From Prorocentrum cordatum (taxonomy: Eukaryota), in contig CAUYUJ010000155.1 in NCBI GenBank assembly GCA_963575745.1, positions 62,001 to 117,486 of the forward strand: 55,486 nucleotides of DNA, read 5' to 3'. Below, piece after piece: positions 780-53,601 of the stretch. The position numbers and the translations under genes were made by a program. The first letter of the stretch is position 1; each line of letters opens with the position of its first letter. The notes below the pieces were generated by a model. It was given only the letters and a program-made list of their open reading frames with translations, made no database searches and was not told the origin of the DNA.

Positions 780-2090
780 CGTGAATGTCCCTGGTGCGTA
801 GGCAAAGGCTGATGTTGTCTGCCCACCGCTTCCGCCGTGGTCTTCCGTGCCGTCGCTGTGCTGGGCGTGCGTCGTGTGCGGCTGGCTCCCACGAGCAGGT
901 TGAGGATGTCTATCTGTCGGACCTGTGCGCTGCCACACGGGATACCCACCACCATTCTCGCTTGAAGCCTGAAGCTCTCCATTCATCCACTTGCGCTCGA
1001 GATGCATGCTGGGCTGCTTCGCGTGTGGCTCTTCGCACTGAGTCGATCCACGGTTCCCGCCCGTCGCCCAACCACTCGTCTGTGCTGTCGGCTGGGTGGT
1101 CGGTGTTGTTTGCACTGTTGGTGTCGGCGGTGACGCGTCGGCGGTGGCGGCCGTGGTCGGAAGTGTCGGGGGCGTGCTGGCAGCAGTCGGTGCGCCGCCG
1201 CGGCACACCCGTGACACGCCTGAGCATGTTCAGTCGGACCCGCCTGAGAACAGCGAACATATTTCTGGTGATGGCTCATGCCAACCGTACACCACGGATG
1301 GCGTGACAGAGCCGTTGAGAGGCTTCAGTCTACACGCGTTTGTCAGTTCGTAACGAAGTGGGTTGAAGCGAGCTCACCCTGCGGCAATCCTGTTGCGTAG
1401 TGCTGCATCGCGAACGTCGAGGAAAATTAGCGTTCTATGTATATATGTATATATATATATATGTACCGACGCTATCGCCGTTAATCTCGACAGTGATTGT
1501 CTTGCCTCCCCTCTGGCTGATATTTGTCAGGATCTTGATGTTGTTCGGGTGTAGGGATAGACTGCATTTGGCTGCATAGGTTTGCGCGTCTCGAAGTCTG
1601 TAGGTAAACTGTCGCAGGCTGAGGGCGTAGAGCAGCACGTCGTCGGCGAAACGCAAAGTTGTGATCCGCATCTGCGGTGCGAAGCCAAGTTGAATCCCGA
1701 AGTTCTTGCGAAGCCTGAATGTCTTCGCTTGTCTGAATACATGCTCGACGATGGCGTTGAAGAAGAAAGAGCCTAGTGGGTCTCCTGGCTTAACGCCCGG
1801 TTCGATGTTGAAGGCTCTGCTGCCGGTATATGTTCGGACTGTAGCTGTTTGGGTGCTGTACAACTGCTTCAAGAAGGTGGTGCACGCGGATGGGATATGC
1901 TATTGTCGAAAACGTCCCATAAGCATTCGTGGTCCACGCAATCGGATGCTGTCCTGAAGTCTACCGCGACAGCCCAGAGATGCAGTAGCTGCCACTCGTG
2001 AGAGCTCTCGTGCAGCTTTATAATGGTAAACCTGTTGCATTCCGACCAGTAGCCTCTGCGAAAACCTGCTTGGTCGGGGCATTGTTGCCT
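780..2090 (-). mobile_element. Degenerate non-LTR (LINE) retrotransposon fragment: RT domain, thumb and C-terminal region
   Basis: Minus-strand reading gives QAGFRRG...AVDFRTASDCVDH (1869-2090), GVKPGDPLG...LRFADDVLL (1435-1872), then LRNRIAAG*ARF...VTPSVVYG and EPWIDSVRRATREA...WWWVSRVA. It has frameshifts, a stop and a (TA)n insertion at ~1440-1462. Confidence 0.9.
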
Positions 2091-6807: not shown

Positions 6808-7477
6808 TGATGATGATGCTGATGATGATGATAATACTAGTTCTAATAATAATAATAATAATAATGATAATAATAATAATGATTATGATAATAATAATAA
6901 TAATAAAAATAATAATATAAATAATATAAGAATAAAAAACAAAAATAATAATAATAATACTGATGATGATGATGATGGTGATGTAGGTTGTGATGGTGAT
7001 GGTGATGGTGATGGTGGTGATGATGGTGATGGTGGTGGTGATGGTGATGGTGATGGTGATGGTGATGGTGGTGGTGATGGTGATGGTGGTGGTGATGGTG
7101 GTGGTGATGGTGATGGTGGTGGTGATGGTGATGGTGATGGTGATGGTGATGGTGATGGTGATGATGATGATGATGATGATGATGATGGTGATGATGGTGA
7201 TGGTGGTGGGGATGGTGGTGGTGATGGTGGTGGTGATAGTGATGGTGATGCTGATGATGGTGTGGTGATGATGATGATGATGGTGATGATGATCATGGTG
7301 ATGATGGTGATGATGATGATGATGATGATGGTGGTGGTGATGATGATGATCATGACGATGATGATGGTGATGATGATGATGATGATGGTGTGGTGATGGT
7401 GATGGTGGTGGTGATGGTGATGGTGATGGTGATGGTGATGGTGGTGGTGGTGATGGTGATGGTGGTGGTGGTGATTG

Positions 7478-7509
<32 letters not shown>

Positions 7510-7595
7510 CTGGTGATGATGATGGTGGTGATGGTGATGATGGTGATAATGATGATTGTGATGGTGATGGTGGTTATGACGATGATGCTGACGAC
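6808..7595 (+). repeat. Compound microsatellite (GAT)n-(AAT)n-(GGT/GAT)n
   Basis: Seen directly in the sequence. Confidence 0.95.
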
Positions 7596-7905: not shown

Positions 7906-8599
7906 ATGGGGTTTGGGGTTGGGGTTGCCCGCAGCATGTCCACGGTCGCGTGATGAGAAGGGGCCCCGGGACGCACAAATAAATAGACACAAAGAACCGG
8001 ATTCCCGATATTTTCCTGTATTTCCTGGGTTTTGTCTTCCCCCCCGGTTCTACATCCTGCGATGCTTCTTGATGGTCCCGGGGCCCGGCGAGGGCCCCCA
8101 CAGAGGCCGAGAGCGGTGAAACACTTCCGCATGGAATGTTCCATCGTGGCCAACTCTGCATTCTTCGCAATGACGCCAGTGACCAGCCCCGCCCTCCCAC
8201 ACCACCCCTCTCCCCCCCCCCTGGTCACGTCACGACTCGCGACGGCGCCGTCTGTGAATCCCACGAGCCATCTGGGCGTGAGTGTTTCAGGGAGTTTCCT
8301 CCTCCAGCTTCCCTCCTCCACTTCGGGGAGGGGCGCATCACTGCTCCTTACCAACAAACACCCCCTCGCCCAGGCGACCGGCAGCGAACTCGGACCAATG
8401 AGACCCCCCCCACCATCCCTTGTCCGCCACCGTGCCTCTGGGCGAGGAGTGGGCGTGTCCTCAGGTCCGCTGCCCAATCCCCTGAGCCTCAGCCGTCACT
8501 CCTGAAGAGCCTCTCAGGGGCCCAGAACCCGAATTGCCGCGATTCCCCTGGGGCTTGCCGCGGTTCCCCTGGGGCTTGCCGCGTCTCGTCGCGTGACTC

Positions 8600-9274
8600 G
8601 TGACCTTTTTCGGGCCCAAGAGGGGCCCCGAGGGTCACGAGAGGCCTCGAAGACGGCCCCAGACCGCCTCGAGTCGCGGTGAGATCGGCCTCAGACGCTC
8701 CAGATGGCCCCTAGAGAGGCCGAGAGGCCCCCAAGACGCCCCAAGAGACCTCCAAGAGGCCTCCGAAGAGGGCACCGAGAGGCCACAGTCATTGATTGCC
8801 CTTGGGTTTTTGATGGATTGTCGCGTTCCCGCCTTGTCGGCTCTCCCACGCTACAAGACGGCCCAAGGCGCTTCCAAGACCGCCCCAAGACGGTCCAAGA
8901 GGGCCCCAAGAGGGCCCCCAGACGGCCCAAGAGGGCCCCAAAACAGCCCAAGAGCCGCCCAAGACGCGCCAAGAGGGGCCAAAAAGATTGAATACGAACC
9001 GAACATCCGAGCCCCCAGCCCCAAGAGGCCCCCAGGAGGCCCCAAGAATCGCCCAGGAGGCCGCACGAGGCCCCCTGAGAGGCCCCCAAGAGTCCTCAAG
9101 AGGCCCCCGATAGACCCAAAAGAGGCCCCAAGAGGCCCGCAAACGGCCTCCTAGAGGCGTCCAAAATGCCTCCAGAAGGCCCCCGAGAAGCCTCCCCCGA
9201 GATCCCAACTAACACCCAATAGGCTGCATCCCCACAACCCAAGCACGGTGGCATGACGGGCCGAAGGCCGCTAG
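8600..9274 (+). mobile_element. Satellite-cored non-autonomous element with a Helitron-like 3' end
   Basis: CCCAAGA(G/C)GG-type core. It ends in the hairpin GGCC-GAA-GGCC (9259-9269) followed by CTAG (9271-9274). The 5' end is not defined. Confidence 0.5.
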
Positions 9275-9275
9275 A

Positions 9276-12200
9276 CCTGGCCCGGCACAGAAACGGAAAG
9301 AGCGCTTCAGAAACAGAAACCGAAATTTCTCACACCACCGTTCGTACTGGGAGCCTTGGCGTTGAGAGCTTGTTACGTCACCCCTCGCTCTTGGGAGCCT
9401 TGGTGTTCAGAGATTGTTGCGTTGCCGCCCGTTCCTGAGCCTTGGCTGGGCCTTGGTGTCAGGAACTTGTTACGTCACCGCTCTCTGCTGGGAGCCTTGG
9501 TCTTATCAGCTTGTTTACGTCACCGTTCGCTCTTGGGAGCCTTGGTGTGAAGAGCTTTTTGCGTTACCGATCGCTCTCTATTTGGCGTCTCTGGGCCTTC
9601 TTGGGAGTCCTATTGGGGCCCTTGTCGGGCCCTTTTGGAGGCCTCTTGGGAACCTCTTGGGGGCCTCTTGGGGCTTCTTGGGGGGCTCTGGGGGCCTCCT
9701 GGGAGCGTCTTGGGGCGAAAGGCTAGACTTTTCGGTTCGTGGTCCCCCTCTTGGGGCCGTCTTGGGGCCCTCTTGGGCCGTCTTGAGCGCCTCTTGGGCC
9801 GTCTTGGGGCGCCCTCTTGGGCCGTTTTGGGGGCCTCTTGGGCCGTCTTGGGGCGGTCTTGGGGGCCTCTTGGGCCGTCGTCAACGCCGTGAAAGCCGAC
9901 AAAGCGCATATGCTAAAAATATACGTTTTCCGATGGAAAATCTATGATTTCGGCCTCTTGGGGCCCTCTTGGGACGCCCCTTGGGCGCCTCTTGGGGGCC
10001 TCTTGGGGGCCTCTTGGGCCGTCTTGGGCGGTCTTGGGCTCTCTTGGAGCGCTCTTGGGCCGTCTTGGGGGGGAACCCGAAAAACATGCAAAAACCCAGG
10101 GAAAACCCGAAAACGGCCATTAACACCAAATGCGCACGCTACCCCCCTCCCCTGGAACCCCTCCCTTTAGGGCTTCGCCCACACCAGAACGTCATCACTC
10201 GTACCTCGCTCTTTCCGTTACCTGGCCCGGCACAGAAACGGAAAGAGCGCTTCAGAAACAGAAACCGAAATTACTCACACCACCGTTCGTACTGGGAGCC
10301 TTGGCGTTGAGAGCTTGTTACGTCACCCCTCGCTCTTGGGAGCCTTGGTGTTCAGAGATTGTTGCGTTGCCGCCCGTTCCTGAGCCTTGGCTGGGCCTTG
10401 GTGTCAGGAACTTGTTACGTCACCGCTCTCTGCTGGGAGCCTTGGTCTTATCAGCTTGTTTACGTCACCGTTCGCTCTTGGGAGACTTGGTGTGAAGAGC
10501 TTTTTGCGTTACCGATCGCTCTTTATTTGGCGTCTCTGGGCCTTCTTGGGAGTCCTATTGGACCCCTTGTCGGGCACTTTTGGAAGCCTCTTGGGAACCT
10601 CTTGGGGGCCTCTTGGGGCTTCTTGGGGGGCTCAGGGGGCCTCCTGGGAGCGTCTTGGGGCGAAAGGCTAGACATTTCGGTTCGTGGTCCCCCTCTTGGG
10701 GCCGTCTTGGCGCCCTCTTGGGCCGTCTTGAGCGCCTCTTGGGCCGTCTTGGCGCCCTCTTGGGCCGTTTAGGGGGGCCTCTTGGGAGCCTCTTGGGCCG
10801 TCTTGGGGCGGTCTTGGGGGCCTCTGGGGCCGTCGTCAACGCCGTGAAAGCCGACGAAGCGCATATGCTAAAAATATACGTTGTCCTATCGAAAATCTAT
10901 GATTTCGGCCTCTTGGGGCCCTCTTGGGACGCCCCTTGGGCGCCTCTTGGGGGCCTCTTGGGGGCCTCTTGGGCCGTCTTGGGCGGTCTTGGGCTCTCTT
11001 GGAGCGCTCTTGGGCCGTCTTGGGGGGGAACCCGAAAAACATGCAAAAACCCAAGGGAAAACCCGAAAACGGCCATAACACCCAAATGCGCACGCTACCC
11101 CCTCCCCTGGAACCCCTCCCTTTAGGGCTTCGCCCACACCAGAGCGTCATCACTCGTACCTCGCTCTTTCCGTTACCTGGCCCGGAACAGAAACGGAAAG
11201 AGCGCTGCAGCAACAGAAACCGAAATTACTCACACCACCGTTCGTACCGGGAGCCTTGACGTTGAGAGCTGGTTACGTCACCCCTCGCTCGTGGGAGCCT
11301 TGGTGTTCAGAGATGGTTGCGTTGCCGCCCATTCCTGAGCCTTGGCTGGGCCTTGGTGCCAGGAACTTGTTACGTCACCGCTCTCTGCTGGGAGCCTTGG
11401 TCTTATCAGCTTGTTTACGTCACCGTTCGCTCTTGGGAGCCTTGGTGTAAAGAGCTTTTTGCGTTACCGATCGCTCTTTATTTGGCGTCTCTGGGCCTTC
11501 GTGGGAGTCCTATTGGGGCCCTTGTAGAGCCCTTTTGGAGGCCTCTTCGGGGCCTCTTGGGGGCCTCTTGGGGCTTCTTGGGGGTCTGTGGGGGCCGCCT
11601 GGAGCGTCTTGGGGCGAAAGGCTAGACTTTCGGTTTCGTGGTCCCCCTTGGGGCCGTCTTGGGGCCCTCTTGGGCCGTCTTGGGCGCCTCTTGGGCCGTC
11701 TTGGCGCCCTCTTGGGCCGTTTGGGGGGCCTCTTGGGAGCCTCTTGGGCCGTCTTGGGGCGGTCTTGGGGGCCTCTTGGACTGTCGTCAACGCCGCGAAA
11801 GCCGAAAACCCGGGTATGCTAAAAATGTACGTTTTCCCGTCGGAAACCGATGATTTTGGCATCCTGGTGGCCTCGCGGGACGCCTCTCGGGGGCTTCTTG
11901 GGGCTGCTTGGGGGGCTGTAGGGGCCTCCCGGGAGCGTCTTGAGGCGATAGGCTAGACTGTTCGGTTCGTGGTCCCCCTCTTGGGGCCGTCTTGGGGCCC
12001 TCTTGGGCCGTCTTGAGCGCCTCTTGGGCCGTCTGGGAGCCCTCTTGGGCCATTTGGGGGGCCTCTTGGGAGCCTCTTGGGCCGTCTGGGGGCGGTCTTG
12101 GGGGCCCCAAGGCCGTCGTTAACGCCGTGAAAAGCGAAAAGTCGTATATGCTAAAAATAAATGTTTTCCTCTGGAAAACAACTGTGAGTTTGGCCTCTTG

Positions 12201-13600
12201 GGGCCCTCTTGGGACGCCCCTTGGGCGCCTCTTGGGGGCCTCTTCGGGGCCTCTTGGGCCGTCTTGGGCGGTCGTGGGCTCTCTTGGAGCGCTCGTGGGC
12301 CTTCTTAGGGGGGAGCCCAAAACACATGCAAAAACCCTAGGGAAAACCCGAAACCGGCCATTAGAGCCAATCCGTCCCCGCTACGCCCACCCCTGGACCC
12401 CCCCCTTAGGGGCTTCGCCCAACGCACAACGTCATCACCCGCACCTCGCTCTTTCCGTTACCTGGGCCGGCACGGGAACGGAAAGGTCGCACTCAGCAAT
12501 TCGCTCGAACATTATCATGGCATCATTCGCCTCTCCAGTCTTGGTATAAAGAGTCTTTTGCGCCGACACTCACTCTTCGGAGCCTTGTTACTCCTGCTCC
12601 TCCTGCCCCTGCTTCTGCTCCTTCTTGTTCACCAACCAATCGAACATCAGCGCTCCTCCTCCTTCTTCTTCTGCTCTTTCTTGCTCATCCTCTTCCTCCT
12701 CATCCTCCTCCTCCTCCCCTGCTCCTCTGCTTGCTCCTCCTCCTCCTCCTCCTCCTCCTCCTCCTCCTCCTCCTCCTCCTCCTCCTCCTCCTCCTCCTCC
12801 TCCTCCTCCTCCTCCTCCTCCTCCTCCTCCTCCTCCTCCTCCTCCTCCTCCTCCTCCTCCTCCTCCTCCTCCTCCTCCTCCTCTCTCCTCCCTCCTCCTC
12901 CCCTCGTCCTCTTCATCCTCCTCTTCCCTCCTCCTCATGCTGCTCCTCCTGCTGTTCCTCCTCCTCCTCCTCCTCCTCCTCCTCCTCCTCCTCCTCCTCC
13001 TCCTCCTCATCCTCATCCTCCTCCTGTTCGTTGTGCTCCTCCTCCTAAGAGCTTTCTTATGCCAGTCGTCGTTACTAATGAGGAGCCATGGTGTTGTGAG
13101 CGTATGACGTCACTGTGAGCTCTTGGAAGCCTCTGTTATGTGGCGTATCCGAGCCTTCTTGGGGGTCGTTTTGGGGTCATTGGGGGCAGTCCTGAGGCCC
13201 ACTTGGGCCGACTTGGGGCACTTTCGGGGCGTCTTAGAAGGCTTTGGCCGTCTTGGGGCTCTCTTGGGGGTCCCTTCGGGCCCTCTTGGGCGCCTCTTGA
13301 GGCCCTCTTGGGGCTCTCTTGAGAGCCTCTAGACCCTCTTGGGCCGTCTTAGGTCCCTCTTGGGAGCCTCTTTGGGCCCTCTCGGGCCGTCTTGGGGCCT
13401 TCACGGGAGCCTTGAGGCGATCTCGTGGGCCTCTTGGGCCGTCTTGGGCATCGAGCCGCCCAAAGGGCCATCCCAATAGATAAAAATCGAGGCCGGAGGG
13501 CGATTAGACTTTTCGCCCGCCCGTCCCCCTTCCCCTGGACCCCCCCCCCCTGGGCTGACGCTCTACCAAGAACGGAACCGCGTGAACGCTCTTTCCGTCA
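9276..13600 (-). mobile_element. Head-to-tail array A: 4 units (9276-10220, 10221-11175, 11176-12460, 12461-13600) of a subterminal-IR element with a GGCCTCTTGGG satellite core
   Basis: Units 1-3 are clearly alignable; unit 4 is divergent. Junctions read CGCTCTTTCCGTT-A|CCTGGCCCGGCACAGA-AACGGAAAGAGCG, a perfect 13-bp IR (10207-10219 / 10237-10249). The array ends each carry only one arm. Strand is inferred from end architecture. Confidence 0.8.
12730..13045 (+). repeat. (CCT)n microsatellite inside array A unit 4
   Basis: Seen directly in the sequence. Confidence 0.95.
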
Positions 13601-16600
13601 TCCGCCGCCCCCTGTCGGCTTGCCACAGGGGTGCCTGGCGTGCCAAATTCTTTCGGTTTGGGTTTTGGTTCTTTTCCAAAAGAACTCCCCCTGGGACTTC
13701 GGCCCGTCCCGCCGGGGTCCCGGGATGATCTTCCAGGAGCTCAATTCCCGGAAAAATCATCCAAGACGGCTCCAGATGGGCTCCAAGATGGCCACGTTGG
13801 CCCAAGATGGCCTCCAAGATGGTCCCAGATGGCCTCCAAGTCTACCGAAGATGGTCCAAGACGGCCTCCAAGACAGCCTAAGAGAGTCTAAGATAACCCC
13901 AAGTTCGCCCAAGAAGCCTCCAAGAGGGGCCTGCAAGAGGTCCTCCAGGAGGATCTGAAGAGGCCAAAATCATTGATGTTCTTTAGGTTTTTGAGGGACT
14001 TGGGCATTTGCTTCTTCTCGGCATTCCGACGGCTCAAGACGGCCCAAGAGGCCCCCAAGATCGCCCCACGATCGCCCGAGAGGCCTCCAAAAGGGCTCCT
14101 TGACGGCCCAAGAGGCCCCCAAGACGGCCCACAGAGGGCACAAACACGACCCAAGAGGCCTCCAAGACGCCCAAGATGGCCTCTAAGACGGCCCTGGAGC
14201 ACCCCAAGAGGGCCCGAAGTCGGCCCAGAAAGGCCCCCCAAACGGCTTCCGACGGCGTCAGACGGGCCAGGAGCCAACCAAGATGGCCGAAGTTGGCTCG
14301 AAGCTGACCCAAGACGGCCCAAGAGGCCTCCAAGAGGGCCTCCAGGAAGGCCAGAAAAGGCCAAAAACACTGATGTCCCGTTGGTGTTCGAAGGATTTTG
14401 ACATTTGCTTCTTTTCGGCCTTCCGACGGCCCGATACGGCCCACGAGCCCCCAAAGAACGACCAACGATCGCCCAAGATACCTCCAAGATGGCCCCAGAA
14501 CGGCACAAGAGGCCACCAAGACGGCCCCAAGAGGCCCCCAAGACGGCCCAGGAGGCGTTTAAGACGCCCAAGATGGCCTCCCAGACGGCCCTGGAGCATT
14601 CCAAGAGGCCCGAAGTCGGCTCAGAGAGGCCCCCCAAGACGGCCGAAGATGGCACTAAGATGGCCCAAGACGGCCAAAGAGGCCTCCAAGAGGGCCTCCA
14701 GGAAGGCCCGACAAGGCCAAAATCATTGATTTCCCATGAGTTTTTGAAGGATTGTGGCATTTGCTCTTTTGTTTGGCCTTCCGACGGCCCGAGACGGCCC
14801 ACGAGCCCCCAAAGATCGCCCAAGAGGCCCCAAGACGGCCCCAAGAGGCCCCCAAGACGGCCCAAGAGGCCTCCAAGACGCTCAAGATGGCCTCCAAGAC
14901 GGCCCAAGAGCCCTCCAAGACGTCCTCCAAGAAGGCCCGAAAGGGACAAAATGGCCTCCAGGCGACCAAGATGACCTTCAAGATGCCCACGTGTTCCTCG
15001 AAGGCTTTCCAAACCGATTCGGGAACACATGGTCCGATAGCTTGGCAGGTCTGGCCTCAACGTTCGGCCACATAGGCGCTTCCAAAAAGGCAGGGGGCGG
15101 CTGTGATTCGCCGTAGACGTCTTCGATTCGCCGCCCCCTGTCGATTCATCGCAGGGGTGCCTGGCGTGCTAGACCCTTTCGGTTTTGGTTTTGGTTCTTT
15201 CCAAAAGAACTCCCCCTGGGGCTTCGGCCCGTCCCGCCAGGGTCCCGGAAGGCTCTTCCAGGACCGGAAACGACCTCAACGTCCGCAACAAATTCTCCAA
15301 GACGGCTCAAGATGGCCTCCAAGACGGCCAAGATGGCCCTCAAGCTCGCCCAAGATGGTCCAAGATGGCCTCCCAGACGGCCCAAGAAGGTCCAAGATGG
15401 CCTCCAATTCGGCCCAAGAAGCCTCCAAGACGGCCCAAGATGGCCCAAGAGGCCCCCCAGATGCTTCCAAGACGGCCCAAGAGGCCTCCAAGTGGTCCTC
15501 CAGGAGGGCTCAAAGAGGTCAAAATCATTGATTTTCCATTCGCTTCTTCTCGGCTTTCCGACGACCCAAGACGGCCCAAGAGGCCCCCAAGATCGCCCCC
15601 ACAGCGCCCAAAAGGCCTCCAACATGGCCTCAGGACTGCCCAAGAGGCCCCCAAGGACCAAGACGGCCCCAAGAGGGCACAAACACCACCCAAGAGGCCT
15701 CCAAGACGCCCAAGATGGCCTCCAAGACGGCCCTGGAGCACCCCAAGAGGGCCCCAAGTCGGCCCAGAAAAGCTTCCTAAACGGCTTCCAACGGCGTCAG
15801 ACGGGCCAGGAGCCCACCAAGATGGTCGAAGTTGGCTCGAAGCTGGCCCAAGACGGCCCAAGAGGCCTCCAAGAGGGCCTCCAGGAAGGCCAGAAAAGGC
15901 CAAAAACACTGATGTCCCGTTGGTGTTCGAAGGATTTTGACATTTGCTTCTTTTCGGCCTTCCGACGGCCCGATACGGCCTACGAGCCCCCAAAGAACGA
16001 CCAACGATCACCCAAGATGCCTCCAAGATGGCCCCAGAACGGCCCAAGAGGCCGCCCAAGAGGCCCCAAGACGGCCCCAAGAGGCCCCCAAGACGGCACA
16101 AGAGGCCTCCAAGACGCTCAAGATGGCCTCCAAGACGGCCCAAGAGCCCTCCAAGAAGGCCTGAAAGGGACAAAATGGCCTCCAGGCGGCCAAGATGACC
16201 TTCAAGATGCCCACGTGTTCCCCGAAGGCTTTCCAAACCGATTCGGGGAACACATGGTCCGATAGCTTGGCAGGTCTGGCCTCAACGTTCGGCCACTTCC
16301 AAAAAGGCAGGGGGCGGCGGTGATTTGCCGTAGGCGTCTTTGATCCGCCGCCCCCTGTTGCTTGCAACAGGGGTGCCTGGCGTGCTAGACGATCTCGATT
16401 TTGGTTTTGGTTCTTTTTCAAAAAGAACCCGCCCTGGGGCTTCGGCCCGTCCCGCCGGGGTGCCGGGAACGACCTCCAAGCCCGCAAACGACCTCAACGT
16501 CCGGAAAAAATTCTCCAAGACGGCTCACGATGGCCTCCAAGACGGTCTAGATGTCCCAAGATGGCCTCCAGATGGTCCAAGATGGCCTCCAAGTCCGCCC

Positions 16601-18245
16601 AAGATGGTCCAGGACGGCCTCCAAGACGGCCTAAGAGAGTCCAAGATACCTCCAAGTTCGCTCAAGAAGCCTCCAAGAGGGCCCAAGAGGCCTCCAAGAG
16701 GTCCTCCAGGAGGGCCCGAAGATGCCAAAATCTTCCTAAGGTTTTTGAAGGTTTGTCGTATTTGCTCCTTTTCGGCTTTCCGACGACCCAAGACGGCCCA
16801 AGAGGCCCCCAAGATCGCCCCCACAGCGCCCAAGAGGCCTCCAAGATGGCCCCAAGAGGGCACAAGACGACCCAGGAGGCCTTTAAGACGCCCAAGATGG
16901 CCTTCAAGACGGCCCTGAAGCACCCCAAGAGGGCCCCAAGTCGGCCCATAGAGGCCCCCCAAACGGCTTCCGCGTCAGACGGGCCCGGAGCCCACCAAGA
17001 CGGCCGAAGATGGCCCTAAGATTGCCCAACAGGCCTCCAAGAGGGCCTCCAGGAAGGCCCGAAAAGGCCAAAATCATTGATTTCCCATGAGTTTTTGAAG
17101 GATTGTGGCATTTGCTCTTTTGTTTGGCCTTCCGACGGCCCGAGACGGCCCACGAGCCCCCAAAGATCGCCCAAGAGGCCCCTAGACGGCCCCAAGAGGC
17201 CCCCAAGACGGCACAAGAGGTCTCCAAGACGCTCAAGATAGCCTCCAAGACGGCCCAAGAGCCCTCCAAGACGTCCTCCAAGAAGGCCCGAAAGGGTCAG
17301 AATGGCCTCCAGACGGCCAAGATGACCTTCAAGATGCCCACGTGTTCCCCGAAGGCTTTCCAAACCGATTCGGGGAACACATGGTCCGATAGCTTGGCAG
17401 GTCTGGCCTCAACGTTCGGCCACATAGGCGCTTCCAAAAAGGCAGGGGGCGGCGGTGATTCGCCGTAGGCGTCTTCGATTCGCCGCCCCCTGTTGGCTTG
17501 CCACAGGTGTGCCCGGCGTGCTGGACTTCTTACGCTCTGGTTTTGGATCTTTGTCCAAAAGAACTTCCCCTGGTGTTTCGGTCCAGCGCGCCGGCCACCT
17601 GAAAGGGACCATAAACGAGCACAACGCCCACAAAAAGATTCACAAGACGGTCAAGATGGCCTCTAAGATGGTCACGTTGGCCCAAGATGGCCCAAGATCG
17701 CCGAAGAGGCCTCCAAGATGATGACCCCAGAAGAACAGCCCAAGAGGCCCCCAGGACGGCCCCAAGGAGCCCCAAGACGGTCCAAGAGGCCTCCAAGACG
17801 CCCAAGATGGCCTCCAAGACGGCCCTGGAGCACCCCAAGAGGGCCCCAAGTCGGCCCAGAGAGGCACCCAAGACGGCTTCCGACGGCGCCAGACGGGCCA
17901 GGAATGCCCCAAGACAGCCAAAGAGGCCCCAGAGAAGCCCCCCAAGGCCCCCGAAAGCTCCCAAGATGCCTCCAAGAGGCTCCCAGGAAGCTCCCAGGAG
18001 GCCCCAGAGTGCCCCCGGAGGCTCCCAAGATGCCCCCTCCTGTTTCCTCCTCCTCCTCCTCCTCCTCCTCCTCCTCCTCCTGATCTTCCCCGCCATCCTC
18101 CTCCGAGTGTTCCCCGAAAGGATTTCACAACGGCTGGGAGGAACACATGGTCCGATAGCTTGGCAGAGGTCTTGCCACAACGCTCGGCCACATGGGCCAT
18201 TCCAACATGCAGGGGGCGGCGGTAATTCGCCGTAGGCGCCTTCGA
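13601..18245 (+). mobile_element. Head-to-tail array B: 4 units (13601-15126, 15127-16343, 16344-17478, 17479-~18245) of a Helentron/DINE-1-like non-autonomous element
   Basis: Each unit starts T(C/T)CGCCGCCCCCTG followed by a partial IR (CAGGGG), has a CCCAAGA(C/T/G)GG tandem core and a conserved block (GGAACACATGGTCCGATAGCTTGGCAG). Each ends CAGGGGGCGGCGG + CGCC-GTA-GGCG hairpin + TCTTCGA, with single substitutions in some units. Confidence 0.82.
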
Positions 18246-18639
18246 AATAAAAAAAACACAAAATGTGTTGTGCCTCCAAATCTGGAGCATGCGCGAGCGT
18301 CCCGCGACCACTTTGCGTTGGTTGTTGACCAGGACGGCGGGGGTGTCGGCATCTTGCTTGCTGCGCGCAGGGCAACACTCCCTGTCGAAAGACCATACAG
18401 CGTGCACTTTGCCTCCAAAATTTTGAGCACGCGCAGGCGCCCGGCGACCACTCTGCATCGGTTCTTGACAGAGACGCCTTGCTGCCCGCGCTGCCACGCC
18501 TGGGCCTCCAGGGTGTCGGGTGCACCTGGAAGCCGCGGCGCACATAGTATGCGTGGCGTTCCCAGGCGGCATGCAGGGATTCGGGTGCTACTTCTGTGTT
18601 GGGAGGGCGGGTGGGAGTGAGCGAGACGGCTTGCGGGCA

Positions 18640-19748
18640 GAGGGGGTGTCTTGACCCCTCCCTCTGCCCCCTCCCCCCTGGACCTGGACAGGGCATTTCG
18701 CGAGATGTCAGAGGATGGTTTCGGGCTCAAGATGGTTCCAAGAGGGCTTCCAAGAGCTCAAGATGACCTCCTGGAAGGCCCAAGATAGCGCAAGATCCAT
18801 CCAGATGGCTTCCAACATGCTCGAAGAGACCCCAACACTAGTCCAAGACGGGTCTAAGAGGCCTCGGAGCCTCCACAGGAGGTCCCAAAGAGGCCAACAT
18901 CCTTCAAGAACCTTCGGAAATCGATGATGTTAGCCTTCTCGCCCTTTCGCTTCCGATGGCTTCCCGAGGCCTCAAGATAGCTCCAAGAGGGCCCAAGACG
19001 GCCCCAAGAGCGGCTCCAGAAGGGCACAAGACGGCCCCGAGAGTGCCAAAGAGCGTTTCAGGAGCGCTTCAAAAGAGCCCCGGCGCTACTTGGAACCTCC
19101 CCCTTCTTAGACCGATCACCTCCAAGATGGCCCCAAGATGGCCTCCGAGGCTCTCCAGAGTGCCCCAAGAGGGCCCCAAGAGCCGCCCAGGAGGCGCCAA
19201 GAGGCTCCCAAGATGCTCCCAAGATGCCCCAAGAGGCTCCCAAGAGTCCCCCAAGATACCCCAAGAGGCTCCTCCGAGGCACCCAAGACGCGTCAAGAGG
19301 CTCCCAGGAACGCAAGGGGCCCCGAAAACGCCCCAACAGGCCTTCAAAAAACTCTCGAGAGACATCCGAAGAGACTCCGAGAAGCATCTAAGAGGCCTCT
19401 GGCCTTTCTGTTCGCCCTCCTCTTCGTCCTCTTCCTCATCCGCCTTATCCTCTGCCTCTCCCTCCCTCATCCGTTATGCCTCCTCCTCCTCCTCCTCCTC
19501 CTCCTCCTCCTCCTGCTCCTCCTCCTCCTCCTCCTCCTCCTCCTCCTCCTCCTCCTCCTCCTCCTCCTCCTCCTCCTCCTCCTCCTCCTCCTCCTCCTCC
19601 TCTGGTTCCTCCTCCATCCTCCCCTTCTCGTGTATGACGGCTTCCCAGCCTCTGTTCCACTGCGTGCTCCCCCACAGGCCTCATCGGGGCAACCCGCCCG
19701 GGCACCGCTTCTGGATGGGCCGGCGGGGCTGCGCGAAGCGTCCAGAAG
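18640..19748 (+). mobile_element. Satellite-cored element ending in a CGC-GAA-GCG hairpin
   Basis: CCCAAGAGG core, then (CCT)n, then CTTCTGGA (19708-19715)…CGCGAAGCG (19732-19740) TCCAGAAG (19741-19748). Boundaries are approximate. Confidence 0.45.
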
Positions 19749-19878
19749 TTGGCATCCCGAAGCACTCCCGGAGGGCGCTGGCCCCTCGCCCCCCCTCCCC
19801 CCCACCCTGGGCACGCCCGTGATCGTCCCGGGGATAAAAAACAACTGCCTCTACCTCTACCCATTGGCGTCGAGCGAT

Positions 19879-22334: not shown

Positions 22335-22980
22335 TGAACCCGCCGTTGCTAGGGCAAAATCAAAACAAATGATTATCCCCCTCCCGTCCGTCCGGCGGTG
22401 GCCCGTGGTGTCCCGCGGTGTCCCGTGGTGTCCCGTGGTGTCCCGTGGTGTCCGCCGTTGCTAGGGCGAAAACAAGACAAATGATTCTCCCCCGCCCACC
22501 CGTCCGGCGGTGGCTCGCGATATCCCGTGGTGTCCCGTGGTGTCGCGTGGTGTCCCGTGGTGTCCCGTTGAGTGAGATCGATAGTGAGATCGATAGTGAG
22601 ATCGATACTGAGATCGATGTGGTGCCCCGAGGTGTCCCGTGGTGTCCCGTGGCGTCCCGCTGAGTGAGATCGATAGTGAGATCGACAGTGAGATCGAGGG
22701 GTGTCCCGTGGTGTCCCGTGGTGTCCCGTGGTGTCCCGTTGAGTGAGATCGATAGTGAGATCGATAGTGAGATCGATAATGAGATCGAGAGGTGTCCCGA
22801 GGTGTCCCGTGGTGTCCCGTGGTATCCCGTGGTGTCCCGTTGAGTGAGATCGATAGTGAGATCGATAGTGAGACCGATAATGAGATCGAGAGGTGTCCCG
22901 CGGTGTCCCGTGGTGTCCCGTGGTGGCCCGTGGTGTCCAGTGGTGTCCCGTTGAGTGAGATCGATAGTGAGATCGATTGA
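22335..22980 (+). repeat. Higher-order minisatellite alternating (GGTGTCCCGT)n and (GAGATCGATAGT)n
   Basis: About five cycles of 10-mer blocks then 12-mer blocks, preceded by a duplicated ~110-bp head (CCGCCGTTGCTAGGGC…AAATGATT at 22340 and 22452). Confidence 0.92.
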
Positions 22981-35629: not shown

Positions 35630-36960
<1,331 letters not shown>

Positions 36961-44851: not shown

Positions 44852-44873
44852 CTTGCGCCAAAACGGCTAAGGA
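44852..44873 (-). other. Relic dinoflagellate spliced leader
   Basis: TCCTTAGCCGTTTTGGCGCAAG matches DinoSL DCCGTAGCCATTTTGGCTCAAG at 19 of 22 positions. Confidence 0.8.
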
Positions 44874-48226: not shown

Positions 48227-48248
48227 CTTGAGCCAAAATGGCTACGGA
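48227..48248 (-). other. Exact 22-nt dinoflagellate spliced leader in genomic DNA
   Basis: The reverse complement reads TCCGTAGCCATTTTGGCTCAAG, a 22/22 match to DinoSL. Confidence 0.97.
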
Positions 48249-49830: not shown

Positions 49831-52239
49831 CTTACGAGTAGTAAAACGGTCAATGTTGTTCTAAGTTCTGTTATAGCAGTGCTTTGTCAGCACTAGTATG
49901 ATCAGTCGCATGCGTATTAGAACCTTATTCGCTTCGAAGTGTGTGTGTGTTGGTGTTCGTAGTGCCAGTTCACGTGGCAGGAGAATCACACTTCGTAACG
50001 AAAGGATTAATGTTACGTTTGTCGTAATAGGTAGCACGTTTGTATACAGTCTCATATTCGCAGTATGAATATGAATAATACTATTACACTGTCCTTGTCT
50101 TCCTCCTCCTTCCTTTCCTCTTACTTCTTCACGTTCCTCCTCATCCCAATCATCCACATCATCCCCACCATCTTCATAATCAGAATCGTCATAACCACCC
50201 ACGTCAACATCAGCAGCAGCATCATCATCAGAATCATCATCCTCAGCAGCAGCACCATCATCATCAGCAGCAGCATCATCGTCCTCGTCCTCGTCCTCCT
50301 CTTCCTGCATCCATCATCATTCTGGGACACACACAGCAGATCATGGTTAAATGCGCACAAGCACTGGCTCCTCCTCCTCCTCCTCCTCCTCCTTCTCATC
50401 CTTATCCTCCTCCTCCTCCTCCTCCTCATCCTCCTTCCCTATTCCTCGCACGTACCCACAGAGCGCGGCGGTCCTCGACTCCGATCACCACCGATTGAGC
50501 TGCTCCGAACACCTCCTCGTCCTCGTCCTCCTCCTCGTCCTCCTCCTCCTCCTCGTCCTCCTCCTCCTCCTCTCTCCATGATCCTCCTCCCCAGCGAGGA
50601 CACTGGATGCACTGAGTCGCACTCCGTTCTGAAGGCTATGCGAGTCGTCCAACCTCGCGCTGCGCACCTGGCGATGCGCGACGCGCGGCTACACTCGGGC
50701 CCCCGCGCGACCGCCATCGAGAAGGGCACATCTCTGGCTCGGGCAGCGACGCGCGAGGAGTAGGAGGAGCTGGCGGAGGAGGAGGAGAAGGCGGAGCTGG
50801 CGGAGGAGGAGGAGGAGGAGGAGGAGGAGGTCCCCCCGAGGTCTTCCAGGTCCTCCATCGGCCCCTTGGAGGCCTGCAGAGGCCCAAGCATGGCCGAAAT
50901 TGTTCAAAACCTCGATGTTCGATCATCGATCATCGAGGAAGGAGGAGGATGAGGAAGAGGAGAAGGAGGATGACGACGACGACGACGAGGAGGAGGAGGA
51001 CGACGACGACGACCAAACTAAACCCAGGATGTGTCGAAGATGCTGCATCTATCAGAAGCGCCCACTTGAAACACCCGCACCTTATAGGACTGCAATTCAG
51101 GCGAGAGCCTCGCTGCGAAGAGTAGAACTTCGAGCGAACTATAAGGAAAGCTGAAACAGGGGATCGTACGGTGCAACGAAGTGTCCAACGAGGGCCCCCT
51201 TTGTGAGCAGAGGCCGCACTCCGTCCGTGCAGCTATGACACCTGTGTGAGCTTCTGGCCGCCGGATGCGCGGAAGTCTCCCGCGAGAGCCCCATGTTTGA
51301 GAAGGGCCCGTCCTCCGGATTGGCACCTGCTGCGCGACTTCAAGACACGTGGGCGCGGCGCCAAACCGAGAGCCCCATTGTCAAAAGGAGCCACCCTTCA
51401 TCCTTGTAGCAAATGCAAGCTGTTGCTATGCAAACGAATGCGCGATGCTAAAGCGAGAAACCCATTTGTAAAAAGGTTCCATTCTCAATCCCTGTAACTA
51501 GTACAAGCTTTCAGACGAATGTGCTCGGCGCTGGGGCTAGAGCCGCATTTTGAAAAAGGTCCACCCTCCATCCTTATAATGATTGGAAACTTCGAGCTTC
51601 AACACAATGAACGGTTTGGAAATCTTCGGAGAAACACCCGGACTGCCCTACCGACACATCTGGTGGTGACAGGGAGGGATTCTCTCCAGAAACATATGAA
51701 GAAGGAAGAAGAACAGCAGCAAGAGCACGACAACGACGAAGAGAAGTGGATCCTGCTGTACGGCGCCCCCCTGGACGAGAACGTAGCTGGCGCGCGGACC
51801 GGGTCTCCCGACAAGGCCCTGCAGAAGAGGCACGGCATCCGCTTGGCCTCCACCTGGCCAACGTCCTGAGGGGACAATTGTCTTGTCGAGGAAGACGAGG
51901 GGAAGGAAAGGAACGAGGCTCGAAGATGGGACGCGTTTGGTCCCCATGGGCCCCTGGAAGCTTCCAGAAGCCTCCGCGAAGACCTCGGAAACATCCTCTT
52001 TCAGAAATTTGGACCTTTCTCGCAGCGACAGCGCACCGAAGTGAGGCAAGCCTAGTGTCGCAGAACGTTCCCCTCAAAACATGCAGAAGACTAGGCGAGA
52101 GGCGGGGGACAAAAGCGTGACGGCCGCGCCACCACCAGGGAGAGGGAATGAGGGGGGGAAGGGAGCAAGGAGACCAAGTGAGCTACTTTGTGTACCCAGA
52201 CACGACGGGCTCATGTTTCAGTCCGCGGGCAACGGCAAC

Positions 52240-52253
52240 AACAACAACAACAA

Positions 52254-52294
<41 letters not shown>

Positions 52295-52297
52295 ACG

Positions 52298-52362
<65 letters not shown>

Positions 52363-53120
52363 TACTAGCACGTGGGGACACTCCGTTCTCACCAGTGCCA
52401 GGGTTTTCATAGGAGGCGGGCAATACCCCCACTTTGTGGGGGGGCCGGTTCAAGCTCTACCAAATTTCCAAACGACTCTTCGCCACCACCCACACCCAGC
52501 TTCCCGCCCTATGACGTTCGGACACTTCACTTCGTGGCATGCGGACGACCGTGGCTACTATTCAGGGCCCCGCGGCCGACGACGACGGCGTGCGCGCGCG
52601 AAGAAAAAACGAATGTGTCCCGCATGGTATTATTTGACAGGGATGATGGCCCTGGCAGGTGCGCAACCGTTGTCGCAGAAGTTCGAAAAAGTTGCTCGCA
52701 AAAGCCCGTTTGACAGAAATGTTTAAAAAGTGTTGGGTTTCCTACGAATCCGCAAGAGCGCGCGGGATGAAATTTTGACATTTTTTTTTTGAAAAACCAT
52801 TGGTTTTTTGATGTTTTTATGTTAAAATCGCTACGAACACTAAGTTTTGGAAGGATTTCGTCTTGCGCGCGCGAATGTCCACTTTACCTTATTTTTTTGC
52901 AAGGGATTCTTGAAGTTTGGTTATGTTAGAACAAGAAATGTCCACTTTAGCTTATTTTTTGCAAGGGAAAGCGGGCAACAAAACAACCGGATCTGGACAC
53001 ATCGTTTTGCCTGAGACTTCCTCACGAAAATTATGAAAATGTGGCTGCGGCCTAGGCGCGGCGGGGGGGCCATGCACCAGGGGTCCCAACAATAATTATT
53101 CTTTAGAAGTAATAATGTTC

Positions 53121-53189
<69 letters not shown>

Positions 53190-53601
53190 TACTAGCACGT
53201 GGGGACACTCCGTTCTCACCAGTGCCAGGGTTTTCATAGGAGGCGGGCAATACCCCCACGTTGTGGGGGGGCCGGTTCTAGCTCTACCAAATTTCCAAAC
53301 GACTCTTCGCCACCACCCACACCCAGCTTCCCGCCCTATGACGTTCGGACACTTCACTTCGTGGCCTGCGGACGACCTTGGCTACTACACTGGCGCATGC
53401 AAATGATACGGGCTGCCGCAGTCAGCCAAGGGAGGCCGCGACAGCTCTGGGCCATACTGGTCGTCAAGGGCTTTCGCCGACAAAGCCATGACCCATCCAA
53501 GAACACAGGCGATACCTTGATCCGAGATGGCTACGGATGTGACAGTGATCAGTGATTTTGTTCGATGACGTGTGACGCACGGACTTGTTGTGGTAACATG
53601 C

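What the first reader, a model, noticed from the sequence alone, without database searches (positions are those of the whole stretch)
13601..18245. Array B matches the Helentron/DINE-1 layout in a dinoflagellate
Seen in the units: a 5' T, a 13-bp subTIR (CCGCCGCCCCCTG), an adjacent partial IR forming a 5' stem-loop, a variable central tandem repeat, a conserved block, the complementary subTIR (CAGGGGGCGGCGG), a short 3' hairpin and a few terminal bases. Unit lengths are 1526, 1217, 1135 and ~767 bp. Established: this layout defines Helentron-associated non-autonomous elements such as Drosophila DINE-1, which seed satellites. Inference: the dominant CCCAAGAGG 'satellite' here is cargo of rolling-circle elements whose transposase is encoded elsewhere.
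Basis: partly seen in the sequence, partly recalled or inferred. Interest (0 to 1): 0.75.

Follow-up and report, generated by a model that had tools for sequence, protein, structure and literature searches.

The report
Array of rolling-circle-like mobile elements
Four head-to-tail copies of a non-coding mobile element carry the local CCAAGA-type repeats in what looks like a dinoflagellate genome, and their ends are built like those of Helitron2/Helentron rolling-circle transposons, though the enzyme that would move them could not be looked for.

Summary
Window 13601-18245 holds four whole units of 1526, 1217, 1135 and 766 bp. Each has a 5' T, the 13-nt repeat CCGCCGCCCCCTG, a nested 5' hairpin, variable central repeats, a conserved tail block, the complementary 13-nt repeat, a small hairpin and about 8 end bases.

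It is a mobile-element family, not a plain satellite. A metagenome scan found the same 37-nt 3' end in six contigs (five loci). It is followed by unrelated DNA in three loci and by the same 5' head in two. In three contigs the interior next to the end is unrelated. The tail and junction are extremely abundant in contigs of three labelled organisms and one seawater metagenome.

The layout fits non-autonomous HLE2 (Helitron2/Helentron; HINE, DINE-1-like) elements. The asymmetric 3' end and the lack of a target-site duplication argue against a TIR/DDE element or a retroposon.

Not shown:
- No Rep/helicase partner was found, because no genome is held and the window encodes none.
- Only one solo 5' end was seen.
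- The target-site rule is unresolved (T^T or A^T).

An exact DinoSL relic supports a dinoflagellate origin. The neighbouring Array A (9276-13600) has the same architecture with different repeats and abuts Array B head to head with no gap.

The parts
13601..15127 (+). Unit U1 (1527 nt with the 5' T): head, three repeat modules, tail
15128..16344 (+). Unit U2 (1217 nt)
16345..17479 (+). Unit U3 (1135 nt)
17480..18245 (+). Unit U4 (766 nt). It is a diverged subtype with no spacer module and a CCT microsatellite at 18045-18104, as in metagenome locus L001.
13602..13614 (+). 5' 13-nt subterminal inverted repeat CCGCCGCCCCCTG. The other copies are at 15128-15140, 16345-16357 and 17480-17492.
13607..13634 (+). 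5' hairpin whose left arm lies inside the 5' repeat (CCCCTGT..ACAGGGG plus a variable distal stem). The same position holds a hairpin in U2-U4, L003 and L005.
   Evidence: the hairpin is the minimum-energy fold in 6 of 6 heads. The distal stem reads GGC/GCC, CGA/TCG, TGC/GCA or GGCT/AGCC.
17290..17479 (+). Conserved tail block of U3. Its counterparts are 14939-15127, 16163-16344 and 18107-18245.
   Evidence: 96%, 93% and 84% identity to the U3 tail
17338..17384 (+). Hairpin inside the tail block (GTGTTCCCCGAA..TTCGGGGAACAC). The outer stem is kept in U4, L001 and L002.
   Evidence: z -3.4; 0 of 200 shuffles fold as well
17443..17455 (+). 3' 13-nt subterminal inverted repeat CAGGGGGCGGCGG. The other copies are at 15091-15103, 16308-16320 and 18210-18222.
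17461..17471 (+). Short 3' hairpin CGCC-GTA-GGCG, followed by 8 end bases TCTTCGAT. The U4 copy is at 18228-18238.
17443..17492 (+). Tail-to-head junction. The two 13-nt repeats lie 24 nt apart and can form a 13-14 bp stem with the joint at its base.
   Evidence: -21.4 to -24.5 kcal/mol, z -2.3 to -3.2 at three junctions
9276..13600 (-). Array A: four whole units (9276-10220, 10221-11175, 11176-12460, 12461-13600). The architecture is the same but the 13-nt repeats differ (AACGGAAAGAGCG / CGCTCTTTCCGTT). Its 5' end abuts the 5' end of Array B with no base between.

Best explanation
Array B is a concatemer of four complete copies of a non-autonomous DNA transposon family whose ends are built like those of HLE2 (Helitron2/Helentron) rolling-circle elements.

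Shown here:
- The elements have a defined 5' end: a T, a 13-nt repeat and a nested hairpin within a head of about 125 nt.
- They have a defined asymmetric 3' end: the complementary 13-nt repeat, a small hairpin and about 8 bases.
- The 3' end is conserved across copies with unrelated interiors and unrelated flanks.
- Copies occur mostly joined 3' end to 5' end.

Inferred:
- A Rep/helicase (HUH nuclease plus Pif1-like helicase) encoded elsewhere nicks at the 5' end and peels off one strand.
- It stops at the 3' signal and joins 3' end to 5' end. In that joined form the two 13-nt repeats pair and present the joint at the base of a stem.
- When termination fails, several rounds give head-to-tail multimers that integrate as arrays of whole units.
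- The CCAAGA-type 10-11-nt repeats and the 340-400-bp modules inside the units then grow and shrink by slippage or unequal exchange, which gives the different unit lengths.
For: 1. Layout. All parts are present in 4 of 4 units.

2. Whole units. The array begins at head position 1 and ends at tail position 189 of 190. Array A likewise holds 4 whole units.

3. A sharp 3' end with different flanks.
- A metagenome scan gave 6 contigs; L002 and L006 are one locus.
- Among the 10 ends compared, the terminal 37 nt are 86-100% identical.
- The 40 nt downstream of solo ends are 7-38% identical (ungapped).
- The 60 nt upstream fall to 30-50% between the subfamilies.
- The end is followed by unrelated DNA in U4, L002/L006 and L004, by a different element head in L001, and by the family's own head in L003 and L005 and at 3 window junctions.

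4. A conserved 5' hairpin. It is the minimum-energy fold in 6 of 6 heads, with four different distal stems that stay complementary. The heads align over about 125 nt.

5. The 24 nt beyond the 3' repeat belong to the element, so the ends are asymmetric. The array flanks CCGTCA and AATAAA share no duplication.

6. Abundance.
- 6228, 502, 33410 and 105 contigs of runs X1, X13, X15 and X9 were laid on the 1.5 kb.
- Summed depth on the tail and junction in X1 is 52,955, against 10.6-48.5 on the flank at 18423-18575. The tool warns that this figure is not a copy number.
- Nearly all contigs that cover position 17480 read the junction as GAT|CCGCC (27,044 of 27,086 depth in X1).

7. Literature.
- The HINE/DINE-1 and HLE2 definitions match this layout (PMC4067079 and PMC11417382, passages read).
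- A Helitron2-like RepHel is reported in a dinoflagellate (PMC8788227, passages read).
- Oyster HINEs carry satellite-like repeats and were classified by structure alone (PMC7492417, passages read).
Against: - No Rep/helicase was found. The only enzyme-like match among the 346 ORF translations scanned is a reverse-transcriptase fragment at 1438-1899 on the minus strand (E 9.7e-7, below Pfam's cut-off). It is 12 kb away and has no visible link to the array.
- Only one solo 5' end was seen (13601), and it abuts Array A.
- The 3' palindrome has only 4 bp, and an isolated 3' end folds no better than shuffles (z -1.44; 15 of 200 shuffles do as well). The U4 5' hairpin is also weak (z +0.47).
- The base after CTTCGA is T in 2 of 4 independent loci (L001, L004), A in U4 and C in L002/L006. 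No clean TT rule emerges, and the data fit A^T about as well.
- Two of five 3' flanks are A-rich: AATAAAAAAAAC in the window and AATAAATAAAAAG in a loose end of run X9.
- Inner copies are not 3'-truncated, unlike the tandem Helitron copies mentioned in PMC7492417.
- The L002/L006 element has the B-type tail, but its 5' side has no perfect 13-nt repeat (11 of 13 match, about 90 nt inside).
- Metagenome contigs can be chimeric at repeats.
Confidence: 0.6

Rival explanations
1. A plain higher-order satellite. A unit of 1.1-1.5 kb that happens to contain a palindrome is amplified by unequal crossing-over, or by excision, rolling-circle copying and reinsertion of extrachromosomal circles. No dedicated transposase is involved.
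For: - Tail-to-head junctions are by far the commonest context of the tail.
- Unit length varies by whole internal modules.
- No transposase was found.
Against: - Arrays A and B both consist of whole units that start and end in the same phase to within 1-2 nt.
- The same 37-nt end borders unrelated DNA in three other loci.
- L003-L005 share only about 46 nt at the 3' end and about 125 nt at the 5' end with the window units, with different interiors.
- U4 belongs to a different subtype from U1-U3 yet is joined in exact register.
Confidence: 0.15
2. A MITE-like or foldback element with 13-nt inverted repeats, moved by a cut-and-paste (DDE) transposase.
For: Perfect 13-nt inverted repeats lie near both ends. 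DINE-1 itself was first taken for a MITE (PMC2374699, search listing only).
Against: - The 3' repeat is followed by 24 conserved nucleotides that end at the same place in all copies, so the repeats are not terminal on that side.
- There is no target-site duplication around the array.
- Head-to-tail joints carry no duplicated target bases.
Confidence: 0.08
3. An element moved by another single-strand, hairpin-reading enzyme (an IS200/IS605-like HUH transposase, or a Rep of an integrated circular replicon) rather than by a Helitron-type RepHel.
For: - Hairpins lie at both ends and there is no target duplication.
- The joint sits at the base of a stem in the joined form, much like a replication origin.
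Against: - Complementary 12-16-nt repeats with a hairpin after the right one are the stated HLE2 signature (PMC11417382, passages read).
- I recall no eukaryotic family of the other kinds with this layout; this is recalled, not searched.
Confidence: 0.1
4. A retroposed non-coding transcript (SINE-like).
For: A-rich DNA follows the 3' end in the window and in one loose end of run X9. An RT fragment lies in the window.
Against: - There is no A tail in L001, L002/L006 or L004, nor at any of 5 tandem joints.
- There is no target duplication.
- There are no 5' truncated copies among those seen.
- No tRNA, 7SL or 5S-like match was found (0 Rfam matches).
Confidence: 0.02

Closest known systems
HINE / DINE-1 (non-autonomous Helentrons of mites, mosquitoes and Drosophila; Thomas et al. 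2014, PMC4067079)
   Same: - 13-nt subterminal inverted repeats.
- The 5' repeat lies 1 nt from the end.
- An inverted repeat is nested in the 5' repeat, as in DINE-1.
- Central tandem repeats and, in U4, a microsatellite.
- A palindrome after the 3' repeat.
- No coding capacity and no target duplication.
   Different: - The host is an alveolate protist.
- The 3' repeat starts 37 nt from the end (38-60 nt in mite HINEs).
- The palindrome has only 4 bp (5-10 bp reported).
- The TT target is not shown and the partner is unknown.
- Copies stand mostly as arrays of whole elements rather than dispersed singly.
Cg_HINE of the Pacific oyster (PMC7492417)
   Same: Satellite-like repeats are carried between element-specific flanking modules that hold the subTIR, IR and 3' palindrome. 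Those elements were classified by structure, without a matched autonomous partner.
   Different: - Here the carried repeat is a 10-11-nt motif nested in 340-400-bp modules, not 140-180-bp monomers.
- Here the whole elements are themselves tandemly repeated.
Helitron2-like autonomous element of Symbiodinium microadriaticum (Heringer and Kuhn 2021, PMC8788227)
   Same: It shows that HLE2-type RepHel transposases, without the endonuclease domain, exist in dinoflagellates. It is the kind of partner this family would need.
   Different: No sequence link to the present family was tested. Its termini are not given in the passages read.
Tandem arrays of canonical Helitrons (HLE1)
   Same: Head-to-tail arrays of whole elements with exact 3'-to-5' joints. 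With the T counted as the first base, the element starts 5'-TC and is preceded by A.
   Different: - HLE1 elements lack terminal inverted repeats and end in CTRR.
- Inner copies of HLE1 arrays are reported to be often 3'-truncated (PMC7492417, introduction). Here they are complete.

Membership tests
HLE2 non-autonomous elements (HINE / DINE-1-like) | Short (12-16 nt) inverted repeats at or near both ends | tested here: met
   The 13-nt repeats have 0-1 mismatch at 8 of 8 positions in the window and are also present in L003 and L005.
HLE2 non-autonomous elements (HINE / DINE-1-like) | [quoted passage not shown] | tested here: inconclusive
   CGCC-GTA-GGCG lies 8 nt from the end in all 10 ends compared. 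It is intact in 8 of them, with one stem change each in U1 and U2. The stem has only 4 bp, and the isolated end folds no better than shuffles (z -1.44).
HLE2 non-autonomous elements (HINE / DINE-1-like) | DINE-1-type inverted repeat next to, and partly inside, the 5' repeat | tested here: met
   The hairpin is the minimum-energy fold in 6 of 6 heads. The distal stem changes on both sides between copies. U4 is weak.
HLE2 non-autonomous elements (HINE / DINE-1-like) | Defined boundaries with unrelated flanks at different loci | tested here: met
   For the 3' end there are 4 independent flanks (U4, L001, L002/L006, L004) and one further loose end in run X9. For the 5' end there is only one solo case (13601).
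HLE2 non-autonomous elements (HINE / DINE-1-like) | Insertion between T and T without target-site duplication | tested here: inconclusive
   There is no duplication around the array. A single T lies between 3' and 5' ends at 5 of 5 joints. After solo 3' ends the base is T in 2 loci, A in one and C in one. The data fit A^T as well as T^T.
HLE2 non-autonomous elements (HINE / DINE-1-like) | Autonomous partner with the same ends that encodes Rep plus Pif1-like helicase | not testable with these tools
   No genome is held. The window has none among the 346 ORF translations scanned. The metagenome contigs are 1.1-2.8 kb. The genome contigs and viral-contig scans found 0.
HLE2 non-autonomous elements (HINE / DINE-1-like) | Paralogous empty sites | not testable with these tools
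   This needs the whole genome.
Helentron in the strict sense | AP-endonuclease domain in the RepHel of the partner | not testable with these tools
   The partner is unknown. The one reported dinoflagellate RepHel lacks the domain (PMC8788227, passages read).
TIR (DDE) transposon / MITE | Inverted repeats at the very termini, flanked by a target-site duplication | tested here: not met
   24 conserved nucleotides lie beyond the 3' repeat in all 10 ends. There is no duplication.
Plain satellite DNA | No fixed unit ends; arrays break at arbitrary phase | tested here: not met
   Arrays A and B are whole units in phase. The same end borders unrelated DNA elsewhere.
Non-LTR retroposon / SINE | 3' poly(A) or A-rich tail, target duplication, frequent 5' truncation | tested here: not met
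   A-rich DNA follows the end in only 2 of 5 solo ends and at none of 5 joints. There is no duplication.

The most novel reading that the evidence does not exclude
The main long-period satellites of this dinoflagellate are built from whole rolling-circle elements of several families, and new copies integrate exactly at the termini of resident elements.

Three observations point that way:
- Arrays A and B meet 5' end to 5' end with no base between them.
- U4, a different subtype, is joined in register to U3.
- In L001 a B-type tail runs straight into the head of another element type.

The transposase would then treat an existing element end as its preferred target. That is a self-seeding route from transposon to mixed satellite array, in a lineage whose huge genomes are largely unexplained repeats.
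Probability: 0.2. Interest if true: 0.7.

Novelty: new member of a known kind. Interest (0 to 1): 0.5.

Why it matters
Repeats in dinoflagellate genomes are mostly unclassified, and these genomes are among the largest known. If this family is mobilised by a Helitron2-like RepHel, three things follow:
- It gives a concrete mechanism for one very abundant repeat class in a bloom-forming marine protist.
- It extends the HINE/DINE-1 'transposon seeds satellite' pattern from animals to alveolates.
- It supplies defined termini (a 5' head of about 125 nt and a 3' end of about 46 nt) with which repeat annotation and a search for the autonomous partner can start.

The stretch searched is also held in part by 20 public runs from 16 studies, mostly aquatic, estuary and seawater metagenomes. 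Only four of these runs were laid, so the rest is a lead and not evidence of habitat.

Tried and rejected
- Earlier findings of this scan: four look-ups returned nothing.
- Rfam on the whole window: 0 matches.
- Pfam scans:
  - One search took 80 of the 117 ORFs of at least 150 aa listed. I left out the 37 that lie in simple repeats or inside the arrays.
  - Searches took 266 of the 338 stop-to-stop ORFs of at least 70 aa with entropy of at least 3.6. I left out 72 lying between 8597 and 20136.
  - The result was no Rep, helicase or DDE family, and one RT fragment.
- The 3'-end pattern found 0 loci in genome contigs and 0 in viral contigs.
- A coding reading of the CCAAGA repeats was considered and dropped. 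The periods are 10, 11, 21, 32 and 43 nt and no family matched.
- A formal covariation count on alignment A1 was not run. MAFFT placed the hairpin arms out of register between copies, so single-sequence folds were used instead.
- (fuzzy regex) timed out and was replaced by blastn-short.
- Depth holes over the U4 head and the flank say nothing by themselves.
- Literature:
  - Search: 34 papers hold 'helitron' and 'dinoflagellate'. Judged from the titles and abstract starts of the 20 listed, none describes non-autonomous Helitron-like elements in dinoflagellates. PMC8788227 reports one autonomous Helitron2-like element.
  - Searches added nothing.
  - Supplements of these papers were not opened.
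Full report
**The observation**

The region 13601-18245 was read in full.
- The 13-nt motif CCGCCGCCCCCTG lies on the + strand at 13602, 15128, 16345 and 17480. Its complement lies at 15091, 16308, 17443 and 18210, each with 0-1 mismatch.
- Only one other site in the 55 kb matches that well (42834).
- With at most 2 mismatches there are 21 sites against 6.4 expected, and 0 of 100 shuffles reach 21.
- A BLAST of the U3 head, tail and internal spacer against the window shows that head and tail occur only in these four units. The array begins at head position 1 and stops at tail position 189 of 190. It therefore holds exactly four whole units.
- Each joint reads CAGGGGGCGGCGG, then 24 nt, then CCGCCGCCCCCTG. 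The 24 nt contain CGCC-GTA-GGCG followed by TCTTCGAT.

**Internal anatomy**

- CCAAGA cores occur 125 times in the array, at 20-33 per kb against 0.2 per kb elsewhere. They are spaced mostly 11 or 10 nt apart (TRF rows).
- They are grouped in modules of about 340-400 bp, separated by a spacer of about 90 nt. The spacer occurs three times in U1, once fully and once partly in U2, twice in U3 and not at all in U4. This explains the differences in length.
- U4 instead carries a CCT microsatellite (18045-18104) ahead of its tail.
- The tail block contains a second, strong hairpin, GTGTTCCCCGAA..TTCGGGGAACAC (z -3.4; 0 of 200 shuffles fold as well).
- The 5' hairpin is the minimum-energy fold in 6 of 6 heads. 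Its distal stem reads GGC/GCC, CGA/TCG, TGC/GCA or GGCT/AGCC in different copies, so both sides have changed together. U4's version is weak (z +0.47).
- Across a joint the two 13-nt repeats can form a 13-14 bp stem (-21.4 to -24.5 kcal/mol, z -2.3 to -3.2).

**Element or satellite?**

No genome is held for this window, so I scanned public metagenome contigs for the 3' end. Six contigs matched; L002 and L006 are the same locus.

I anchored all ends on the 3' repeat and compared them.
- The terminal 37 nt are 86-100% identical among the 10 ends.
- Downstream of solo ends, identity drops to 7-38%.
- Upstream, L003-L005 share only a few bases with the window units (30-50% ungapped over 60 nt).

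What follows the end differs between loci:
- unrelated DNA in U4, L002/L006 and L004;
- the head of a different element type in L001;
- the family's own head in L003 and L005, exactly as at the three window joints.

The heads of L003 and L005 align with the window heads over about 125 nt. Conserved ends with exchangeable interiors and changing flanks are what a transposon family shows, and a plain satellite does not.

**Abundance and junction form**

The U3/U4 joint region is held in part by 20 runs from 16 studies. Most are aquatic, estuary or seawater metagenomes, and three organism labels also appear.

I laid four runs on window 17250-18750 at 85% likeness.
- 6228, 502, 33410 and 105 contigs were laid for X1, X13, X15 and X9.
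- Summed depth in X1 is about 52,000-53,000 on the tail and joint, against 10.6-48.5 on the flank at 18423-18575. The tool warns that this is not a copy number.
- At 17480 nearly all depth reads C (27,044 of 27,086 in X1). The usual joint is therefore GAT|CCGCC, and most tails run on into a head.
- Listed loose ends include a U2-type hairpin variant (X15 at 17493). They also include a different upstream sequence directly before the 3' repeat, and an A-rich flank after the end (both in X9).
- Only the best-supported rows of that output are shown, so I could not collect more solo 5' ends.

**Which kind of element?**

Thomas et al. 2014 (PMC4067079, passages read) describe HINEs and DINE-1 as follows:
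- subTIRs of 12-15 bp;
- the 5' subTIR 2-4 nt from the end;
- a palindrome of 5-10 bp near the 3' end;
- in DINE-1, an inverted repeat nested in the 5' subTIR, central repeats and a microsatellite;
- insertion at TT.

The HELIANO paper (PMC11417382, passages read) gives the canonical HLE2 structure as 12-16-nt terminal inverted repeats with a stem-loop after the right repeat. All structural items are present here.

Two alternatives are excluded:
- The 24 conserved nucleotides beyond the 3' repeat, and the absence of any duplication between the flanks CCGTCA and AATAAA, exclude a terminal-TIR/TSD element.
- No A tail occurs at 5 joints or in 3 of 5 solo ends, which excludes a retroposon.

Three points remain weak:
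- The 3' palindrome has 4 bp, and an isolated 3' end folds no better than shuffles.
- The base after CTTCGA is T, T, A and C in the four loci.
- If the T is counted as the element's first base, the data fit A|TC... as well as T^T.

Orientation cannot be fixed without a coding partner. Read on the other strand, the layout would be the 'HLE2-reverse' form mentioned in PMC11417382.

**The partner**

None of the 346 ORF translations scanned from the window matches a Rep, helicase or DDE family. The only enzyme-like hit is an RT fragment at 1438-1899 on the minus strand (E 9.7e-7, below Pfam's cut-off). The metagenome contigs are too short, and scans of prokaryote genomes and viral contigs found nothing. 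Heringer and Kuhn (PMC8788227, passages read) report a Helitron2-like RepHel without endonuclease domain in Symbiodinium microadriaticum, so a suitable enzyme exists in the group. Whether this organism has one with these ends is untested. That gap is why confidence stays near 0.6.

**Host**

The full 22-nt spliced leader TCCGTAGCCATTTTGGCTCAAG lies at 48227-48248 on the minus strand.
- The 21-nt core matches exactly, with 0 matches expected by chance, and there are two degenerate copies elsewhere.
- It is followed by TGCC rather than GT, and an ATG lies downstream. This is the pattern of a relic leader on a retroposed gene copy.
- I recalled the motif from memory. PMC3101222 (passages read) gives a probe that confirms its last 14 nt and names AUUUUGG as the DinoSL Sm site.

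**Neighbours**

Array A (9276-13600, minus strand) is also four whole units. Each is bounded by its own 13-nt repeats (5' T + AACGGAAAGAGCG ... CGCTCTTTCCGTT + 16 nt). Two of its three joints fold into a 13-bp stem (z -4.7 and -3.9; the third -0.2). Its 5' end (complement of A13600) and the 5' end of Array B (T13601) touch with no base between.

In L001 a B-type tail is followed at once by a second kind of head (CCCACCAGCC...). That head also occurs in L002/L006 and at window 8266. In each case it is preceded by a short hairpin plus a few bases ending in AT(C).

These end-to-end contacts suggest insertion at resident termini. With so few cases this remains a lead.

**Verdict**

- The element nature is well supported.
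- The HLE2-like rolling-circle mechanism is the best reading, but it is inferred.
- The strict 'Helentron' label and the TT rule are not established.
- In kind it is a new member of a known class in an unusual host, of moderate interest.

Noticed in passing
window 9276-13600 (- strand): Array A is four whole units (945, 955, 1285 and 1140 nt) with the same architecture as Array B but different 13-nt inverted repeats (AACGGAAAGAGCG / CGCTCTTTCCGTT). It also carries a 44-nt internal repeat and CCTCTTGG-type repeats. It abuts Array B 5' end to 5' end at 13600|13601.
   Followed up: partly
window 48227-48248 (- strand); weaker copies at 44852-44872 and 53516-53536: Exact 22-nt dinoflagellate spliced-leader sequence, followed by TGCC (not a GT intron) with an ATG about 50 nt downstream. 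It looks like a relic leader on a retroposed gene copy.
   Followed up: partly
window 1438-1899 (- strand): ORF fragment matching reverse transcriptase RVT_1 (E 9.7e-7, 29.1 bits against a cut-off of 29.6). Probably a decayed retroelement.
   Followed up: no
window 8266-9250 and 18600-19800; L001 (oriented copy) 296-1300; L002 45-590: A second element type with a head CCCAC(C/G)AGCC..GGGCGTGAGTG..CTTCGGGGAG and an inner CCCCTCCCCTGGACCTGGAC motif, followed by CCAAGA repeats. In L002/L006 it ends with the B-type tail. In three loci its head is preceded by a short hairpin plus a few bases ending in AT(C).
   Followed up: partly
window 18246-18600: About 355 bp lie between the end of U4 and the next element, with two direct repeats of about 60 nt (18271-18330 and 18411-18470). 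In L001 the corresponding gap is absent.
   Followed up: no
window 22340-22977: Compound tandem repeat of 101-112 nt built from a 10-nt unit (GGTGTCCCGT) and a 12-nt unit (AGTGAGATCGAT).
   Followed up: no
window 6961-7591, 12653-13025, 19416-19622, 35700-36400: Long trinucleotide-type microsatellites of the (TGA/TGG)n, (CTC)n, (CCT)n and (CAA/CAT/CAG)n kinds. Several sit at the edges of the repeat elements.
   Followed up: no
L002 937-2313 (- strand): A 458-aa open frame beside the element contains a GDPH motif and a PTPF/PTPS repeat. It was not searched against any library.
   Followed up: no
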